Shown: positions 16,101-58,152, counted from the stretch's first letter. The stretch: DNA of 64,000 nucleotides from Azolla caroliniana (GCA_043228905.1 JBHGNT010000005.1:22196001-22260000); one strand, 5' to 3'. Notes: generated from the sequence alone by a model not told the origin. Made by a program: numbers and translations.

Positions 16101-17164
16101 ACGTCTCAAATCAGGTTTAATTGTTTTTTGTAAAAATTCCTTAACTGGAGGGCATGTTTTAATGTTTTGGGTTGTGTCTATAGAGATCTGTCAAGCAATG
16201 AATTCGATGGTTCGATTCCCCAGACCTTTCAAGCATTACCAAGTCTCACTCAATTGTAAGTACATTTTCTCCTATTTGTAATATTTAGCAATATAATGCA
16301 TTGTTTGTTTAGAAACTTTTGATGATATTCTCTTGCACATTACACATACCAGGTATCTACAAGAAAATCAATTTTCAGGCTCCATAAACATGCTAGCGAA
16401 TCTTCCACTGACAGATTTGTGAGATCCTATGAGAAGAAAGTTGCCATATATTGGAGAATTTAAATTCTTTCTCCAAACATCAGCTGATAAAATGTTTTAC
16501 TTATGTTTCTGACAGGAATGTATCAAGCAACAGGTTGACAGGATGGATTCCATCACAACTGCAGAAATTTCCTTCATCAAGGTGTGTGAAGCATACAATT
16601 GGAATTACTTAGCTCCTAGGTAATAATCATGGTTCAGATGTGGTATGTTGTTTTGTGAGAGTGGGCTGTGTTGTATGAATGTAGCTTTGCAGGAAATTCG
16701 TTCAATACATTTCCTGCTCCTCCACCACCACCTCCTCATTTGAGCCCCCCACCTCCATCAGCTCCACCAAACTCTACGAATGGTCTAGAGAAAACTTCTC
16801 CAACAAGTAGACAGACACCAGAATCTCAAGGTTACTTGACAGTTGGAAAACGGATAGGAATCGCAGCAGCTAGCCTCTTAGGATTTATGGTCTTCTTGCT
16901 TATCATTGCTTTCTTTGTCTCAAGAAGGCGTCATAAACGAAAGGAAGAGAAATATGATCCTGAAAAGTCCTGGCACAGCACCTTCACTTCTTCTTGGAAA
17001 GGTGCATTCAATCCATCCAAACTAGATGAAAGCAATGAATATGTATACACCTTTATGTATAATTATACATGGACATTCACATACACATGCACATACACAT
17101 GGACATGGACATTCACATACACATACACATACCCATACGCATACCCATACCCATACCCATACGC

Positions 17165-17213
<49 letters not shown>

Positions 17214-17359
17214 TACGCATACGCATACGCATACACATACACATACGCATACGCATACACATACACATACGCATACGCATACACATAATACACATACGCA
17301 TACGCATACGCATAATACACATACGCATACGCATATGCAGCATACGCATACACATACCC

Positions 17360-17390
<31 letters not shown>

Positions 17391-17491
17391 TCCACATCCA
17401 CATCCACATCCACATACACATACACATACACATGCACATGCACATGCACATGCACATGCACATGCACATGCACATGCACATGCACATGCAC

Positions 17492-17528
<37 letters not shown>

Positions 17529-20500
17529 TACTCATACACATACACATACACATACACATACATACACACATACGCATACGCATACACATACACATACCCA
17601 TACACATACACATATGCATACACATACCCATACCCATACGCATACACATTCACATACACATACACATACACATACATGCTGTATAATTTATCCATGTAAT
17701 TATCATTATAGTATTAACATTGTACATTTTATGACAGGTGACCGTAAACAACCTTTTGTTCCGGTTCAAGACCAGACAGAAGAATCAAGGAAAGTGGTAA
17801 AGCCACCACCAAAAGCCAAAACACTGGAGTTTTCTGCATTGAAGCCGCCTCCATTGCCTTTTGAAGACTTCAAGCCTGAAAATAGTCAAGACTACACTCG
17901 AGACAACAGATCACCAGAATTTTCTGTCTTGAGGCCTCCCCCCTTACCTTTTGAAAGTTTTAAGCTTGGGAACAGTGAAGAGTCTACCCCTAGAGCTGCA
18001 AATATTGCACGAAAGATATCAATCGAGGCACAAGAGTTCACTATTGCAGAGTTACAAGTAGCAACTCAGAGCTTTGCTGAAGAGAACCTTATTGGTGAAG
18101 GGGTGGATGCTAAAGTCTATAAGGCTAAGATTGCAGATGGAAATGTATGTGTCGATTTCAATGTGATCCAAATTCTCTTTCCCTCACACCTTTTAAAGAA
18201 AATAAATGGTTCGTTATATATTGGTGAAGTGAAGAACCACAAAAAAATGTATACAAGGGAGGAATCAGCAGGTCATTATATATATCTTAAGACCAGAATA
18301 TGCAAAGAAGAGGGCATATATATCCTCCTTGATACACATTACAAGTACATAAAGTTTGCCTGATGGAAAATTTGCGAAAGTCTGATATAGGTTGCAGGTA
18401 AGTTGATCATAATGGAATTGGTTGTGTGATAAGTCTGACCCATGCAAAAAAGACTGTTAATGCCTGAAGACCCCAAGTCATACTGGACTTATATGAGCTG
18501 GAAATGGTAGTTGTAGATAATGATTGACCTCCAGTAAAGTGGGTTATTGTGGACAATCCCCAAAGCAGATTGTAATGATCATAAAACATCTGTTTTAAGT
18601 CACATATGCCTGAGGGTATTCTGAATAATTGGCTCTAGTGGCATACTGCTTTGTCATGGATAAATTTGACCTTCAAGGGATGCTAAAACCCTTACGAAGG
18701 CATGCAAAAGAAAATTCATTAGATGTTAGATACAAAGGTAAAGGTCTAATTAATGTGTCAATAAAAGGTGATTTCAGTTTTTCTTGAAAATCTGAAGTGC
18801 CCTTCTAGATCTATTCATTTATGGTATAAACACCATAATCATATTGTTTTTGTTTGTAAATTGGGAAATCAATGTTCCCTTGTGTGTGTGCGTATGCATA
18901 TGTTTGATAATATTACACATAACCTTTGGCTTGTTTCGTTATGATCAGTTTGCAGTTGTGAAGAAGCTCAATTATTCTATTAACAGAGTAAGTGATGAGG
19001 ACTTTCTTGACTTTGTATGGAAAGTATCACATCTCCGGCATCCAAGTATAGTAAGACTCCTCGGATATTGCATCGAACATGGAGAACGTCTTCTTGTATA
19101 TGAATTTGTGGGCAATGGAACTCTTTATGAAAGCTTGCATTCAGATTTAGGAGGGAATACGAAGTTACCATGGAAAACCCGTGTAAAGATTGCCCTAGGG
19201 GTTGCCAAGGCTTTAGAGTTAAGTATTTTTTGATTTTTTTTTGATATCATCAGAAGGATGTCATGTTTATTTCAAACTCGCATATTTTTTTTAGTTGATA
19301 ATGGTCTGAAGGATTGTTCCACATGCTTGTTATGTTTTCTTGCCAGATACTTGCATGAAGAATGCAAACCACCTGTTATCCATGGCAACTTGACATCAAC
19401 CAATATTCTCCTTGATGAAGATCTTCTTCCTCATCTCTCTGACTGTGGACTTGTGACTGAAAATGTATGAACATATCTATTGATAGAAAATAAATTAGCT
19501 TCTTTGGATAAGCCTCCACATGCTCACTAATATGGGGATTTATGAGAAGTTAATAATGACTTGAGGTTTGACCTATTCTTCTTTACTCCAATTTTTTACT
19601 TGTTACTTTTGTTAGGGTTCCTCCAAGCGGTTTGTCTATAATGCCCCTGAATTTTTGTCACCTGAGGCTGACAAGGAAGCGATTGATACATATAATTTTG
19701 GAGTCGTTATGTTGGAATTATTGACAGGGCGTAAAAAAGTAGACAGGTACTGTTTTGCAAAACTTATATTACTTGCAACCTGGAAATTCAAATATTTTTG
19801 GTAAAATATTGCAATCTCATACTTGGTGATATTCCCGATATACTTTTAGAGCAAGACCTAGGTCAGAGCAATGTCTATTGAGATGGGCAGTCCCACAATT
19901 GCATGATATCAATGCACTCGAAAAAATGGTTGATCCAGCTATCGAAGGAATGCATGCTAAGAGATCTGTGTCTAGATTCGCCGACATCATACATCGGTGT
20001 GTCCTGGTACGAAATATTGATCATTTCTGGATTTCTTTTTCAAGTTTTGACCAAGATATATAATATACCAACCAACTAATCACCGACCAGAATATTGTTA
20101 ATATCTGTATTTTTTGCAGTTTTTGCTTAAGTTCTACTTTTTACCAAATGGAAATTGGTACATTCACAGTTTTTTCCGTATTTTCACAGTTTCTTTTTTT
20201 TGAGTTCAGAAATATGATTATTTGCACTACAAATGATAGCCAGATTCCATCCCCCCAAAAAACTGTGAAAATACGGAAAAAACTGTGAATTTACCAATTT
20301 CCCAAATTTAATATATATTTGCAAAATAAAACTATTACCAATCAAGAAATTATGCTTCGGCCAGTCTCTAACTTAATGTGTATGTAGAGATTGATATTGA
20401 CTAATCATCAGTTAGCAAAATATTTGATAATATGTGGAAATTATCAAGTTTTTCTTAAGCTCCAATATATGTATATCACCTAATTACCTCACAAAATATT

Positions 20501-31388: not shown

Positions 31389-31401
<13 letters not shown>

Positions 31402-31598
31402 CTCTCTTGAACCTTCAAGAAGTATAAGTCTACATATATGTATGTATGTATATAAAAAAGAGCCTCCATTGTAACCTTCAAGAAGTATAAGTCTATATCA
31501 GTATATAAAAGAGCCTCCATTTTTAGAGAGAGAGAGAGAGAGTATATGGCCTTTTGAAGCTTCAGAAAAACTTAGATATAAAAAGAGCCTCCATTTTT
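31389..31598 (+). promoter_or_regulatory. Core promoter of the bestrophin gene with a triplicated TATA module
   Basis: TATAAAA(A)(A)GAGCCTCCATT occurs three times (~31451, ~31505, ~31577) with ACCTTCAAGAAGTATAAGTCTA twice, 60-260 bp upstream of the ATG. Confidence 0.55.
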
Positions 31599-31653
31599 AC
31601 AAGTCAAAGAGAAAGCAGAGAGACACAGAGAAAACAGAGTAGTGTGTTGTGCC

Positions 31654-34600
31654 ATGGTTGGCCTCACCTCTGGCCATAGCCATAGCCATAGCCATAGCCA
31701 TGCCTTCCTTCACCCCTGCTCCTCCAACTCTTCCTCTTCCTCCCTTCAGACGCAGACACAGACACAGACGCAGACTCAGACACAGCAGCCATGGCGGCTC
31801 CACCTCCCCCGATTCTCCTCCCCGACCTCCTCCTCCTCCCCCGTCGTCGTCTCTCTGCTCCCCCGCTCTCGCAATTCCCCCCTTTTGTGTAGCCTCTCCG
31901 CCCCAGAACCTGCCCCACCCCTTTCGCCTTCATACCTCCTCGCTCTCACTCTGCAGCGGACGCGCCCCTGCCAAGCCCATGGAAATCTCGCCCGAAACGC
32001 CCCTGGTGCAGATGATCCCCCCGTCTTGGCTTCCCCTGGAGAAGATCGATGGGAAGATATCTCTGGTTCCAGTGATCAAGATCAGGTACTCATCTCACCC
32101 TGTCTCAGACAATCAGGCTCTGATGTCAGCTCTGATGAGATTGTAAATAAAACCCTAACTAACGGTGATAGTAACGAGAAGGGAAGAAGTAATGGAAATT
32201 TTGAGAAGGATGAAATGTCATCTTCTGCCAGAATGCCAGAAAATAGTGGCCAAGATTTTACTAGCAAAGTAGGTATTGAGGATCACAAAACACCTGTACA
32301 AAATCTTTATGAAGATGGAAAGACGCTGTCATCGCAGCTTTCCTCAACGAAAATGAAGCACAATAGCAATAGTCCAAATTATAATGACCGAAATTCTACT
32401 TCGATACCATTAGAAATCCCTGTTGAAAATCTTTGTGATGATGGGAAAAGGTTTTCATCATCTCAGCGTTCCTCAAGCAAAATGGAGCTAGATAGCAGAT
32501 TGTCTACTTTGTTGCCCTCAGAAATGTCAAAAGGGTACTATGCAGATAGAATACCATTATCGTCTAAGTCGTCCACTAGCAAAACGAATCTGGATTGTAA
32601 TAATCTAAATCAAAATGGCATAAAGTCTACTACTATCACAAGCGCTGACATTACTGACAATCTTGGTGAAGATGGGAAAACATCTTCATCTCAGATTTCC
32701 TCCAGCAAGATGGAGTTCGATAGCAATAACGAAAATCAAAATAGATCTTCTACTATGATAAGCTCTGACATGTCTGAAAGCCTTTATGAAGACACTAAAA
32801 CATTGTTATCGCAGACTTCCCCAAGTAAAGTGAAACTTGATTGCAGTAATATGAACGGAAATGGAAGAAATTCCTCTATGATTCCATCAGAAATGTCTGA
32901 AGACGGAAAAACGTCATTAATAAAGCAAAAACTGGATAGCCACAATGCAGATCAAAATGGTATAAAATACACTGGTAAGATACCCTTGGAAATGTCGGAA
33001 GACAGTTCAGGAGAGCCATCTACTTCATCTTATTCAGCTACGGAAGAGTCTGAATCTACACTGGCATATCTCTTGGCGTCAACGAATCCTATAGAGTTCA
33101 TCACTAGGTTTCCTGCTTGGGCGGATGCACAGAAAGAGAGTGGTATGCCTCAAAGGCAGAAGAGAGCTTTCTTTTCGCATGAGGATTGGCTTCAACACCG
33201 AAGTACATTGAGATATGTGCGTCACATGCTTTCCAGTTTTTCTTCAAGAGTTATTGTTTCATTGGTTCCACCCGTCTTTACTTTCACTGTATGTGCTGTT
33301 GTCATTGCAGCATATAACAGTGCTGTAGACTCTGGCTTTATCCCATCATTTTTTCCGTTACTTCACGCATCATCGCTTCCATATGAGCTCACAGCTCCTG
33401 CCCTTGCATTACTCCTTGTGTTCAGAACTGATGCGTCTTATTCTCGTTATGATGAAGCAAGGAAAACGTGGACAAATGTTATCAGCGTTACCAAAGACTT
33501 TGCAAGGCAAAGTGCACATCTGATTGCAAGGCCAGAAGATGAATATTTGAAATCATCGCTTTTGAGTTACATCCTGGCATTTCCTATTGCATTAAAGGCA
33601 AGCCCTTTTATATATACGTGTTTCATTTCCTTCCTTTATTTTTTGTTCTGAACAGCCTGCTAAAAGTTCATTTCTTTTGCAGTGTCACCTTATCAACGGT
33701 TCTGATATAAGGAAAGAGCTACAAGTTTTGCTTGAGAAAGATGACCTAGCTTTTGTTCTTGCTTCAAAGAACCGGCCAAATTGCTTACTTCAGCTGATGT
33801 CGAGAGTCCTTGCCCTTGTGCAACTTGAAAATACAGAAAGGATTCTATTGGTGAGTTGAAAATATTCCATTGTCAAGAAACTGCTGAATAAAGACAAAGT
33901 CTTTCTAGATCAATAAGATGGTATGTTCTGTGGTGAGTGGACACAGTTCTTTATTATTTCATTGACGTTAAAGATGAATCTGGGAAGAATGCTTTCGTAT
34001 AATCCTATTTTGATGACCAAGACTTTATTCTAACACCCCATGATCTACATACAATTTCATAATATTGTTTTCTTGAATGAATAGTGCTCATGTGTAAACA
34101 TTCTTTCACATCTTAACAGGAGGCCAATATCGTACAATATAATGCAAGTATTTGTGTGTGCGAACGGCTTATTCGAACACCAATCCCATTGTCTTACACA
34201 CGTCTTACATCAAGGTTTTTGGTCTTGTGGCATACAAGTCTTCCAATTGTACTCTGGGATTCTTGCAATTGGCTAGTTGTGCCTGCCACTTTTTTGAGTG
34301 CTACAATGCTGTTTTACATTGAGGAGGTATGGCTGAATTTTGAAATCTATAGATCGTTGTATATTTTCTCATTGCTGGTCTGAAACCAAGTGAGATTTCT
34401 TGCATAGATTTAGAACCATTCTTCCACTAATAGCTTTGATTTTAACAAGGCAACCGCTCAAGCCACTATCTCAACCCCGCATACTAATATTGATTGATTC
34501 TTAATGGAATAGTGGTTCTTTTTTACCTAAATGGCCACATGGGCATGAAATGAATGTTGGTATCCTAACTAATTGGCTCTCTTTTTCATTAACAGGTGGG

Positions 34601-34766
34601 TGTCCTTATCGAAGAACCATTTCCCATGCTAGCTTTGGATAAAATCATTGGTGTTGCACATAAGAACATACATGAACTAATAGGCCTACAGCAGAAAGCA
34701 GATGAATTCCTCTCCTTGAAGAGGAAGGTAGCAAGTGACATCTCAGCAAATGATCTCACAGATTGA
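31654..34766 (+). CDS. VCCN1: Chloroplast (thylakoid) bestrophin-like voltage-dependent chloride channel, VCCN/UPF0187 family, with long repeat-containing N-terminal extension, ~829 aa
   Basis: Exons 31654-33597, 33683-33850, 34120-34326, 34596-34766 (2490 nt; intron 1 is GC-AG). Ser/Pro-rich transit-peptide-like start. Core motifs HEDWLQHRSTLRYVRH, APALALLLVFRTDASYSRYDEARK, FPIALK|CH, TPIPLSYTRLTSRFL and IEEVGVLIEEPFPMLALD match plant VCCN. Confidence 0.93.
32290..33010 (+). repeat. Coding tandem repeat array (6 full + 1 partial units, ~33-42 aa) within the bestrophin N-terminus
   Basis: EDGK-type anchors at ~32311, 32437, 32542, 32668, 32788, 32899 and 32998; consensus ~NLYEDGKTxSSQxSSSKMELDSNNxNQNGxxSTxIPSEMS. 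Confidence 0.88.
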
Positions 34767-38293: not shown

Positions 38294-38579
38294 TTGCTTT
38301 TGCGACTCGCGGCTCGAAACTGCTCACCGCTCATTCGAATGCTTCAACTGGGATATTTTCCTTGGTAAGTTCCTTCTAATCACATTGCTCTTTTGCTTTT
38401 ACTAACCGCTTGCATCGCTTCAAAGCGTTTGAGCGCTCTCATATAAACCACATTCTTAACATATCCATATATTGTACCTGATTAATTATATCATTCCTTG
38501 GTTTTTGTATTGTACCTGATTCATTATATCATTTCTACATTAATTCTTATACTCTATAAGCATTAAAGGTCTTTTGTAG

Positions 38580-39580
38580 ATTAGTAAGTACACACACTCC
38601 TTATATGCTAAGCTTGGTATGCTTGCCGAGGCGTAATCAGTATTTGATGAGGTTGTGACTAGAGCTGTAGTCACATGGACTGCACTTATTGCTGGATATT
38701 CTGAACAAGGTTTATGTGAACAAGCGCTGTGATATTATGAGCAAATGCTATCAGAACAATTGGATCCAGACAAAGTCATTATAATGTGTGCTTTAAAAAC
38801 ATGTACTAGCATTAGAGATTTAGAACGAGGAAAAGAAATACATCTTCATACTGTCAATGAAAGGATAAAAACTATGTGCTTAATACACTGGTAGATTTGT
38901 ATGCTACATGTGGTTGTTTGGCTGAAGCAATACAACTGCTTGATGAGCTTCCAAAGAGAGATGTGATCTCATGGAATGCATTGGTGACAGGGTACTCACT
39001 ACATGGGTGTGGCAACAATGTTTTAGATTGCTTAGAAAAGATGGAACTGGAGGGTCTGTCTCCCAATGGTATTACTTTCATTTGTATCTGAAAAGCATAT
39101 TGTATTCTAGAATATATGGAACGGGTATAGGAAATAAATATTGGGACTGTAAAACAAGGATTTGAAAAAGATCCTTATGTTGGGAGTAGTCTTGTAGGAA
39201 TGTATGCTAAGAATGGCTGACTTCAAGAAGCAAAGATGCCACGCTTTGGAATGCACTCATTTCTGCATATGCAGATGAAAATCTTCTTATTGAATTGTTT
39301 GGATCTATGAATTAGATGCAACTAGAAAGAATCTCTCCCAATGCAGCTATATATGTGAGGTCTTTGTGGGTTTGTGGAATTGTTGGTTGCCTAAACCTGG
39401 GACAAAAAATACACTTCGAAATTGTAAACAAAGGGATGGAAGAAGACATTTTTGTTGGTAATGGATTAGTAGATATGTATGCAAAATGAAACCTTCTCTT
39501 AGATGCACAGGCAGAGTTCAATAAGTTGCTTGTTCAAGCTGTTGTTTCATAGACTGCACTGACTTCTGCATATCTTGATT
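38580..39580 (+). pseudogene. PLS-class pentatricopeptide repeat (PPR) pseudogene
   Basis: AKLGMLAEA*SVFD..VVTWTALIAGYSEQG..LERGKEIH; NTLVDLYATCGCLAEAIQLLDELPKRDVISWNALVTGYSLHG; VGSSLVGMYAKNG; VGNGLVDMYAK*. In-frame stops and frameshifts, intronless. Confidence 0.9.
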
Positions 39581-56500: not shown

Positions 56501-58152
56501 CATCTCTGTTTGTAAAAAGACATCATGATATGGTGGTATAAAGGTCACTATTGCATTTTAGAATGTACTTCCAAGCTCAGTATCCTAGAGAAGAACATCA
56601 TGACATAGGTGATATAAAAGCCACTATTGCATTATGGGATGTATTTTGAATCTTAGCCAAATTGTCTCAGCGAGCTGTGAAGTTCTACCACATGTTTTGT
56701 GAAGCAGAGAGTGATATTTTATCATCATAATATAACTCGTACAAAAACCATCTCTCATTGATTCCAGGTGATCTGCTGTCATATGCAGCGAGTTATTGTC
56801 TCTAACACTGGGGATCTTGCGAAATGGAAGGTAAAAAAACATATATATACCTTAGCATATGTTGTTGATGTGTTCCATAATTAATATTTTGTATATTTTA
56901 TTCGTAGGGGCGTGTGAAATTCCCGTTTGTTCTGAATTTTTTTCCTTACACACTTTCTGCACAAGGTTACACTGAGCAAAAGTATCAGTCATTAGCCAGT
57001 ACCCCATTTCATTGGATGGACCATGAAGAGTTCCTGCACAAGTATGTGTGGCACAAAATACCTCAGGGCAATGCACCTCATCTTCATAGGGACCCTTTAA
57101 GTACCTCTGATGAATCAACCTCTGATGACACTCATGCAAGTTCGTCTACTAGTGATAGTGAAGATTTAGCTTCTGAAATGTCCTTTGAAAGTATGGTTTG
57201 GAGATGTGAAAATTCTGAGCAAGAGATGTATGAAGAGGCGTATGGATGTGATCGGCATGATGGCCCTTTCTCGGTACATTGCGATGGTCGCTGGAACAGC
57301 AGTGCTTCATTTATGCAAAAGGATGGAACTTTTGAAGATAGGAAGGTGCCTTATTCTTGTGGCTATCAAGCAGATGAAGATTTTGCAATGGAAAGTGATA
57401 CACAAGATGCAGTACCTATGTTATCTGTGGCTGATACATTGGATGAAACTATCCACTATGAACAAGGACAAGATGATAAATTTAAGAGCAAGAATTGGTC
57501 ATATGAGCTTGTTTCAGTAGTGGTACATGATGGATCTCCTGGAAACGGACATTACATCGTTTACAGAAAGGCAAAGCTGAAAAAGGAAAAAAAACCCCAA
57601 AAGGAAAGTAATTTACAAATATCTCAGCAAGGCTCTTTGGATGTTGATATGGAAGTCGAATCAAGTGAAGTGCAAAATGTGATAGCTCTCAACACAACTG
57701 ATACATCGAAATGGGTTGGCTCAATGGTTTTAGACAGCAGTTGTGAAAATGATGCAAGATCCAGTGTTAATGAATGTGAAGCTTGTCTACAATATGATAG
57801 AGAATCAAAAGATCGCACTCTACTTGCTTCTTCTTCTTCTTCTTCGTTAATAAACAGCGGTTGTGAAAATGATGGAAGATCCAGTGTTAATGAATGCGAA
57901 GCTTGTCCACAATATAATAGAGGATCAAAAGATCTCACTCTACTTGCTTCTTCTTCTTCGTTAGGATTGGAAAAGGGATATTCTCAAGGTATCCAGTCTC
58001 TTTCTTTCCAGATGAAACCTCTTAGAGATTGTATTGCAGAAGACGAGTCTGTGCTTTGGTTCAGAGTCTCGGACTCTCAAGTGGATCTAGTGACAGAGCA
58101 GGATGTTATGATGGCAGAGGCAACCTTGCTTTTCTATGAGAGATGTTCATAG
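53579..58152 (+). CDS. UBP27: Ubiquitin-specific protease (peptidase C19), UBP27/USP30-like with N-terminal membrane anchor, ~823 aa
   Basis: 9 GT-AG exons: 53579-53947, 54844-54970, 55080-55180, 55384-55611, 55700-55768, 55867-55998, 56347-56484, 56768-56830, 56908-58152 (2472 nt, in frame). Cys box GLRNVGNNCFLNAVLQAL, QQDAAE, CQEC and CSYC zinc pair, His box VVVHDGSPGNGHYIVYR, WFRVSDSQV..ATLLFYER; hydrophobic LFTVFGALAMGAIVLAG anchor. Confidence 0.92.

What the first reader, a model, noticed from the sequence alone, without database searches (positions are those of the whole stretch)
32050..33110. Thylakoid bestrophin (VCCN) doubled in size by an intact, Ser-rich N-terminal array of ~40-aa tandem repeats
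Seen: a single 1.94-kb open exon places ~350-400 low-complexity residues between the transit-peptide-like start and the conserved VCCN core (which begins ~WADAQKE/HEDWLQHRS at ~33110). This region has six full and one partial diverged repeats (NLYEDGKTxSSQxSSSKMELDSNNxNQNGxxSTxIPSEMS; spacing 99-126 nt, all indels in frame). Known: angiosperm VCCN1 is only ~400 aa, and bestrophins are pentamers. In Chlamydomonas, BST4/RBMP1 carries a long disordered tail with repeated Rubisco-binding motifs. Inference: a pentamer would display ~30 copies of a sticker-spacer motif on the stromal side. This could be a multivalent tether, condensate or phospho-regulatory module on a thylakoid anion channel in a land-plant lineage. 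The algal W[R/K]xxL Rubisco motif is not present, so any partner is unknown.
Basis: partly seen in the sequence, partly recalled or inferred. Interest (0 to 1): 0.82.

Follow-up and report, generated by a model that had tools for sequence, protein, structure and literature searches.

The report
Fern chloroplast channel with repeat-swollen tail
This fern gene is a relative of the chloroplast chloride channel VCCN1 whose spliced transcript carries a long, serine-rich front end with six repeats; the repeats change almost as fast as introns, so they are likely a floppy, loosely constrained tail rather than an array of binding sites.

Summary
An 829-aa VCCN-family protein is encoded by four exons. 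One spliced contig carries exon 1 from 31791 to its end, array included, in one piece. The array is six 33-42-aa units at 32299-32997, narrower than reported. The gene belongs to a fern-only paralogue clade (100/99) whose members all have long Ser/Asn-rich N-termini of similar composition. The six-unit array is confined to close relatives; more distant ferns show one or two weak copies or none. Against an intact orthologue, array dN is 0.08 (core 0.009; introns 0.06-0.10) and dN/dS 0.44-0.59, CI 0.26-1.03. Changes are no more conservative than random and hit consensus columns as often as variable ones. The frame is kept: 5 of 5 coding indels are in frame. AlphaFold gives no fold. The multivalent sticker-tether reading is not supported. 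The best reading is a recent tandem expansion inside a tolerated, likely disordered stromal tail, selected for frame and probably composition rather than motif. I found no description of the long-tailed fern clade in my literature searches.

The parts
31654..33597 (+). Exon 1 (648 codons): putative transit peptide, long extension with array, N-terminal helices, TM1-TM2 and start of the stromal domain; ends in a GC splice donor
   Evidence: (Pfam Bestrophin_2 on aa 512-648)
31654..31893 (+). Putative chloroplast transit peptide (aa 1-80): Ser-rich, no acidic residue before E85; contains HS and QT microsatellite runs. Inferred from composition, no targeting predictor run
   Evidence: the start resembles the N-termini of fern homologues P0002, P0006, P0015 (by eye)
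31894..32298 (+). Non-repeat part of the extension (aa 81-215), acidic, predicted disordered; aa 135-215 evolve neutrally
   Evidence: dN/dS 0.8-1.1 versus L001; pLDDT about 40
32299..32424 (+). Repeat unit 1 (aa 216-257)
32425..32529 (+). Repeat unit 2 (aa 258-292, internal in-frame deletion)
32530..32655 (+). Repeat unit 3 (aa 293-334)
32656..32775 (+). Repeat unit 4 (aa 335-374)
32776..32898 (+). Repeat unit 5 (aa 375-415)
32899..32997 (+). Repeat unit 6 (aa 416-448, shortened; some relatives carry 12 more bases at its start)
32998..33039 (+). Remnant of a seventh unit start and acidic Ser-rich linker
33040..33168 (+). N-terminal helices matching the VCCN amphipathic (NAH) and charged (NCH) helices (aa 463-505)
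   Evidence: helices 463-474 and 479-495 in the model; alignment to 7EK1 from aa 481; dN 0 over aa 471-505 versus L001
33683..33850 (+). Exon 2 (aa 649-704)
34120..34326 (+). Exon 3 (aa 705-773)
34596..34766 (+). Coding part of exon 4 (aa 774-829 and stop)

Best explanation
This is a transcribed, spliced member of a fern-only VCCN paralogue clade, likely a thylakoid anion channel, whose long Ser/Asn-rich N-terminal extension is predicted to be a disordered stromal tail and grew further in this lineage by in-frame tandem duplication of a ~40-aa segment into six units. Shown: gene structure, presence in the mature transcript, clade membership, frame maintenance, near-neutral amino-acid turnover and no position-specific conservation. 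Inferred: import into the chloroplast with cleavage near aa 80, retention of about 380 disordered residues ahead of the membrane-anchored NAH helix, and pentamer formation. Also inferred: selection acts on the frame (the start and transit peptide must stay joined to the channel) and probably on hydrophilic composition, not on the repeat motif. Any effect of the tail would come from its bulk, as a passive brush on the stromal face, not from repeated binding sites.
For: Contig X1 record 1 (2938 nt) covers 31791-33595 in one piece with 11 differences and is spliced at all three introns. The window sits in a 10-row fern clade, support 100/99, with 230-511 residues before the WxxHRS motif versus 128-187 in the six other fern rows; Ceratopteris and both Adiantum species have a long and a short paralogue. 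Extension composition is similar in the eight other clade members tested (Ser 0.16-0.22, Asn 0.08-0.15, aromatic 2-4%) and in the array (0.21, 0.10, 3.4%), while the sequence is barely alignable. The unit profile finds one or two copies, in the same position, in P0002 and P0003 (21.0 and 13.6 bits, 0 of 300 shuffles), a marginal signal in P0005, and little in other Adiantum or Ceratopteris rows. Versus L001: array dN 0.077-0.082, core dN 0.009, introns 0.056-0.101, core dS 0.09-0.11. Mean BLOSUM62 score of array changes is -0.39, against -0.40 simulated neutral. Column conservation does not predict change. 5 of 5 coding indels are multiples of three, versus 2 of 10 non-coding (p=0.007, pooling different comparisons). 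Three of four distinct short array-like proteins from other contigs break into another frame, showing what decay looks like when the frame is not selected. No secondary structure is predicted over aa 1-462, pLDDT about 40; two-unit model pTM 0.14.
Against: Array dN/dS is below 1 in point estimate (0.44-0.59; CI 0.26-0.83 at kappa 1, reaching 1.03 at kappa 3). There are 36 amino-acid changes versus 42-43 simulated (p=0.04-0.06), and an independent subsample of read differences gives 15 synonymous and 22 non-synonymous. So weak constraint exists, and it is stronger than in the pre-array stretch. A long extension has persisted across the whole clade, which is hard to explain if it does nothing. 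Shared composition may partly reflect common ancestry. Short linear motifs under weak selection would be hard to see with one orthologue pair. The AlphaFold alignments were shallow over the array. Targeting, processing and channel activity were not tested.
Confidence: 0.58

Rival explanations
1. The tail is an active regulatory module encoded by composition: a Ser/Thr-rich disordered region that would be phosphorylated or sense stromal crowding, and would tune gating through the adjoining NAH/NCH helices or set the channel's place in the thylakoid network. It would give ferns a differently regulated second VCCN; the repeat number only tunes its length.
For: Long extension of similar composition in all tested members of a well-supported clade, while short paralogues are kept alongside. 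It abuts NAH/NCH, which are essential for activity, and the authors of PMC9076864 suggest activation by stromal secondary signals. 28% Ser+Thr and 6 S/T-x-x-D/E sites in the array. dN/dS point estimate below 1.
Against: No conserved phosphosite positions were found, and changes are as radical as neutral ones. Extension length varies about twofold within the clade. No functional data.
Confidence: 0.2
2. The extension, array included, is removed during or after chloroplast import (extended presequence or secondary processing), leaving a normal-sized channel.
For: Near-neutral evolution with strict frame maintenance is also what a cleaved presequence shows. All structural conservation starts at NAH.
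Against: aa 131-470 are net acidic, unlike typical transit peptides (own knowledge). AtVCCN1's predicted targeting peptide is 40 residues (PMC4890181, section 5). aa 1-80 already look like a complete transit peptide.
Confidence: 0.13
3. One reading: each unit carries a sticker motif, so a pentamer would display about 30 binding sites that tether the channel to Rubisco, carbonic anhydrase or a condensate.
For: Six recognisable units with a few shared positions. Stromal position by analogy (PMC9076864). Precedent of a bestrophin with a disordered, motif-bearing tail (BST4, PMC11638005).
Against: Consensus columns change as often as variable ones (17/104 vs 19/125; 12/104 vs 10/125 in reads). No Trp and only 8 aromatic residues in 233. 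The array is not shared with more distant clade members. The unit profile against 1.84 billion representatives found 12 proteins: six array pieces close to this gene and six weak hits, of which the three I inspected are unrelated repeat proteins. I know of no pyrenoid in ferns (own knowledge).
Confidence: 0.06
4. Artefact or non-coding: the array is a cryptic intron, a 5' UTR or a pseudogene remnant.
For: Contigs drop rare variants, so a minor spliced-out isoform cannot be excluded. Frameshifted array fragments exist elsewhere.
Against: One spliced contig holds the whole array. No in-array joints in the runs laid. All coding indels are in frame. The core is under strong purifying selection (dN/dS 0.08-0.10). 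Only one canonical donor-like site was found (32975), downstream of the only acceptor-like site.
Confidence: 0.03

Closest known systems
VCCN1/VCCN2 thylakoid anion channels (Arabidopsis At3g61320; apple MdVCCN1, PDB 7EK1)
   Same: Bestrophin_2 domain; N-terminal helices ahead of TM1; neck Pro/Leu/Phe (P582, L586, F590); Tyr332 equivalent (Y730); small aperture residue (T699 for S301) (numbering from PMC9076864).
   Different: 511 residues before the WxxHRS motif versus a median of 93 among 160 homologous proteins held. Glu195 is Asp593, and four of seven NCH charges differ; these states are shared with other ferns, and the Asp with lycophytes.
Fern long-N VCCN paralogues (Ceratopteris KP509_16G014300, Adiantum GOP47_0011025 and L7F22_067601; unnamed P0002, P0003, P0007, P0008)
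   Same: Same clade (100/99); about 77-82% identity over the exon-1 core; extension of the same composition; one or two weak copies of the unit in P0002 and P0003.
   Different: Extension is 175-280 residues shorter. No six-unit array. Self-repeat signal is absent in Adiantum and Ceratopteris and present, from an apparently different short unit, in P0003.
Chlamydomonas BST4/RBMP1
   Same: A chloroplast bestrophin with a long disordered stromal tail (PMC11638005, passages).
   Different: BST4's tail is C-terminal with two Rubisco-binding motifs in a pyrenoid-bearing alga, and the authors conclude it is not a tether. Here the tail is N-terminal, has no such motif in the array and shows no motif conservation.

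Membership tests
VCCN (plant thylakoid bestrophin-like channels) | Bestrophin domain homologous to VCCN1 | tested here: met
   Pfam PF25539 E=1.6e-30 on exon 1; 7EK1 matches for exons 1, 2 and 3; nested among land-plant VCCNs
VCCN (plant thylakoid bestrophin-like channels) | N-terminal amphipathic and charged helices (NAH, NCH) | tested here: met
   Helices at 463-474 and 479-495. D95, E99 and probably R103 equivalents are kept; R88, D92, R96 and R100 are replaced, with similar replacements in other ferns
VCCN (plant thylakoid bestrophin-like channels) | Neck Pro/Leu/Phe and the Glu195-Tyr332 pair | tested here: inconclusive
   Neck and Tyr are kept. Glu is Asp593, also seen in lycophytes and most fern rows; E195 mutants including E195D cut currents by half or more in MdVCCN1 (PMC9076864)
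VCCN (plant thylakoid bestrophin-like channels) | Chloroplast transit peptide and thylakoid location | tested here: inconclusive
   Composition of aa 1-80 fits; no predictor or localisation available
VCCN (plant thylakoid bestrophin-like channels) | Pentamer with anion conductance | not testable with these tools
   Inferred from family only
Rubisco-binding bestrophin (BST4/RBMP1 type) | W[R/K]xxL-type Rubisco-binding motifs on the stromal tail | tested here: not met
   None in aa 81-488; a single match at aa 47-51 inside the putative transit peptide. The motif pattern is taken from the finding and recalled, not from a call
Rubisco-binding bestrophin (BST4/RBMP1 type) | Long C-terminal disordered tail | tested here: not met
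   The C-terminus is of normal length; the tail is N-terminal
Multivalent sticker-spacer linker | Motif positions conserved above spacer positions across orthologues | tested here: not met
   p=0.86; p=0.71 and 0.38; one orthologue pair plus read differences, so power is modest
Multivalent sticker-spacer linker | Intrinsically disordered, repeated units | tested here: met
   (disorder is predicted only)

The most novel reading that the evidence does not exclude
Ferns evolved a second class of thylakoid anion channel whose gating or placement is controlled by a several-hundred-residue disordered stromal tail attached directly to the gating helices. The tail is encoded by composition and length rather than sequence and is lengthened independently by tandem duplication in different fern lineages. 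It would be a natural handle on the still-unknown stromal signal that opens VCCN channels.
Probability: 0.2. Interest if true: 0.7.

Novelty: new variant of a known kind. Interest (0 to 1): 0.36.

Why it matters
How VCCN channels are switched on is unresolved, and the N-terminal helices are the suspected control point (PMC9076864). A fern clade that has kept a long disordered tail on exactly those helices, beside a short paralogue in the same genomes, offers a ready long-versus-short comparison in Ceratopteris. If the tail is inert, the case is a clear example of a membrane channel tolerating a doubling in size by neutral repeat growth, which is of modest interest.

Tried and rejected
No whole genome is held for this window, so a short paralogue or further array fragments in the same genome could not be sought. 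The word-indexed protein search with aa 135-480 found nothing at E<=1 among 7996 candidates of 356-1134 aa. The ESM Atlas gave no result for the array or for P0002. The scan's earlier findings held nothing by sequence or by words. No run listed as holding the stretch is on record as RNA; I rely on the spliced joints instead. Contig depth is lower over the array than over the core in X2, X15 and X3; contig depth cannot rank parts of a gene and no joint supports skipping, so this was not used. A seventh unit upstream (aa 181-215) was rejected. A resemblance of the unit's end to a short stretch in short fern and moss VCCNs (P0015, P0020), seen by eye, was not significant with the unit profile (25 and 136 of 300 shuffles reach it). 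The reverse test, a profile built only from the eight other clade members, hit the window's extension at 0 of 500 shuffles without composition correction but only 20 of 500 with it, so homology of the unit beyond P0002/P0003 is weak. Gene conversion between units as a cause of the high array dS was not supported by an excess of multi-hit codons (5 observed, 5.3 expected). No complex prediction was run: I make no binding claim and no matching partner was available. Long N-terminal frames in three moss-clade rows (216-252 residues; P0017, P0055, P0069) were examined. They are genomic frame calls ending in intron read-through, P0017 has an upstream Met extension, and none resembles the fern extension by eye (P0017 also scored no hit).

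Full report
Gene structure. The window holds an open frame from an ATG at 31654 to a GC splice donor after 33597, followed by three phase-0 exons (33683-33850, 34120-34326, 34596-34766); the product is 829 aa. Exon 1 matches Pfam Bestrophin_2 over aa 512-648, and exons 1-3 each match apple VCCN1, PDB 7EK1. Four of 19 listed runs were laid on the whole gene; all four show the three intron joints. One 2938-nt contig from X1 covers 31791-33595 in a single piece with 11 differences and one 3-nt deletion, then runs through exons 2-4. The tool marks these runs as RNA only by guess, but the joints show spliced molecules. The array is therefore in the mature transcript. Contigs drop rare variants, so a minor isoform is not excluded.

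The array. There are six units of 42, 35, 42, 40, 41 and 33 aa at aa 216-448 (32299-32997). Of 15 unit pairs, 12 beat at least 499 of 500 shuffles; a candidate upstream unit failed in 6 of 6 comparisons. DNA copies are 64-84% identical, spaced 99-129 nt apart. Tandem Repeats Finder does not report the array, consistent with its divergence. The array is 21% Ser and 10% Asn, near neutral in charge (net -4), with 8 aromatic residues and no Trp. AlphaFold on exon 1 with a 29-row alignment predicts no secondary structure before aa 463 (pLDDT about 40) and helices from 463 on. A two-unit model with six rows has pTM 0.14. Both alignments are shallow over the array. Residues 1-80 are Ser-rich with no acidic residue before E85, as expected of a transit peptide (inference).

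The channel core. Using the MdVCCN1 numbering of PMC9076864 (I read parts 1-3 of 6 of the text: abstract, introduction, results, discussion), the neck P184/L188/F192 is kept as P582/L586/F590, Y332 as Y730, and aperture S301 is T699. E195 is D593 and four NCH charges differ, with similar states in other ferns. That paper places the charged helix on the stromal side and shows NAH/NCH are needed for activity, so an uncleaved extension would lie in the stroma directly ahead of these helices (inference).

Phylogeny. The best database hits are fern proteins. In a tree of 47 core sequences, chosen by me from the 120 listed hits (all top 19 plus a spread of other plants), the window falls in a 10-row fern clade, support 100/99, as sister to the other nine rows (that branch 97/65, unsure), within a 16-row fern group. 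Clade members have 230-336 residues before the WxxHRS motif (window 511), the six other fern rows 128-187, and the median over 160 held proteins is 93. Ceratopteris richardii and both Adiantum species each have a long and a short paralogue. The genus of the window was not determined. The extensions share composition (Ser 0.16-0.22, Asn 0.08-0.15, aromatic 2-4%) but little alignable sequence. A profile of the six units finds one or two copies just upstream of NAH in P0002 and P0003 (0 of 300 shuffles), a marginal total score in P0005 (0 of 300 on full score, best domain 7.1 bits), and weak or no signal in the other rows tested. Self-repeat signal is strong in the window, present in P0003 and weakly in P0002 and P0007, and absent in Adiantum and Ceratopteris. 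Searching 1.84 billion representatives with the unit profile gave 12 proteins: six array pieces close to this gene and six weak hits, three of which I read and found to be unrelated repeat proteins. So a long tail is old in this clade, and the six-unit array is a lineage-restricted expansion.

Selection. A metagenome scan returned 14 loci, two close to the window (L001, L002) and 12 moss-like. L001 covers aa 135 to the end with an intact frame and intact splice sites, including the GC donor. Window versus L001: core dN 0.009, dS 0.09-0.11, dN/dS 0.08-0.10; NAH/NCH dN 0; pre-array dN/dS 0.8-1.1; array dN 0.077-0.082, dS 0.14-0.17, dN/dS 0.44-0.59 (bootstrap CI 0.26-0.83 at kappa 1, 0.35-1.03 at kappa 3); introns 0.056-0.101. 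The ratio below 1 owes much to a high local dS; the array's amino-acid rate is close to the intron rate. Simulation gives 36 observed changes versus 42-43 under neutrality (p=0.04-0.06), with no shift toward conservative changes (BLOSUM -0.39 versus -0.40). Columns conserved among the other five units change as often as variable ones: 17 of 104 versus 19 of 125 (p=0.86). Read-based differences, of which only 40 of 109 and 40 of 110 rows were shown, gave array 15 synonymous to 22 non-synonymous, core 19 to 2, and the region before the array 2 to 12. The frame is protected: five of five coding indels are multiples of three (3, net 24, 12, 15, 3) against two of ten non-coding ones in L001 (p=0.007 pooled; 0.09 within L001 alone), and 89-91% of neutral simulations put a stop in the array. 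By contrast, short proteins from other contigs match pieces of the array and then shift frame (P0124, P0125/P0134, P0129). L002 and a loose end in run X12 join foreign sequence to unit 5 at about 32800. P0122 equals L001 for about 260 residues and then switches to a diverged copy. These look like dispersed decaying fragments, with some assembly chimeras (inference).

Interpretation. The simplest account is a working VCCN paralogue with a long disordered stromal tail that tolerates duplication, insertion and substitution as long as the frame, and probably a hydrophilic make-up, survive (0.58). A regulatory role encoded in composition or length remains open (0.20), because the tail has lasted across the clade, adjoins the gating helices and shows slight constraint. 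Removal on import (0.13) fits the evolutionary pattern but not the acidic composition. A multivalent motif tether (0.06) fails the one test available here. Artefact (0.03) is nearly excluded.

Comparison and novelty. AtVCCN1 has a predicted 40-residue targeting peptide and lies in stroma-exposed thylakoids (PMC4890181; section 5 and passages read). BST4 has two Rubisco-binding motifs on a C-terminal tail that direct its localisation, and the authors conclude it is not a tether (PMC11638005; abstract, outline and passages read). Searches for VCCN1+fern (16 papers), VCCN1+N-terminal+cryo-EM (7), bestrophin+hornwort+pyrenoid (18), VCCN1+VCCN2+phylogenetic+bestrophin (5), bestrophin with two fern genus names (0 and 0), VCCN1+phosphorylation+N-terminus (4), a five-term fern ion-channel query (28) and a disordered-repeat query (0) showed no title or abstract start describing long-tailed fern VCCNs. 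Apart from the three papers named, I saw listings only. I read no supplements; the supplementary phylogeny of PMC4890181 might include fern sequences, and subscription journals are not covered.

Noticed in passing
window 33598-33682: Intron 1 is a GC-AG intron, confirmed by contig joints and conserved in L001.
   Followed up: yes
L002:1-700; run X12 loose ends at window 32802, 32917, 32965; proteins P0122, P0124, P0125, P0127, P0129, P0134: Dispersed, partly frameshifted fragments of the array with foreign flanks exist in relatives. The L002 flank looks like a GT-AG intron ending just before the junction. They could be transposon-captured or duplicated pieces; L002 and P0122 may be assembly chimeras.
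   Followed up: partly
window 57734-57959: A 120-nt, 1.9-copy, 93% identical tandem duplication inside the open frame of a ubiquitin C-terminal hydrolase gene (56908-58152, Pfam UCH): another in-frame 40-aa duplication in a low-complexity coding stretch.
   Followed up: no
P0002, P0003 residues about 125-205: These fern orthologues carry their own short repeated unit in the extension, apparently different from the window's unit, suggesting independent repeat growth.
   Followed up: partly
window 31673-31785: Coding microsatellites (His-Ser and Gln-Thr runs) in the putative transit peptide; a W[RK]xxL match at aa 47-51 follows them, probably by chance.
   Followed up: no
runs X2 and X15 on window 31791-33144: Two distinct copies of the gene, one about 99% and one about 90-94% identical to the window, as expected of a hybrid or polyploid.
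   Followed up: partly
window 16659-19233: Receptor-like kinase gene fragments (Pfam kinase at 18796-19230) interrupted by a 600-nt hexamer microsatellite at 17073-17676.
   Followed up: no
window 38540-39530: PPR repeat fragments in short frames on both strands (Pfam PPR at 38861-39088); possibly a degraded PPR gene.
   Followed up: no
window 31400-31600: Two or three imperfect copies of a 60-70-nt segment containing a TATA-like motif just upstream of the start codon (seen by eye).
   Followed up: no
tree: The window's core has a long end branch (0.24) compared with P0002 and P0003 (about 0.08 from the shared node); lineage rate or relaxed selection was not separated.
   Followed up: no
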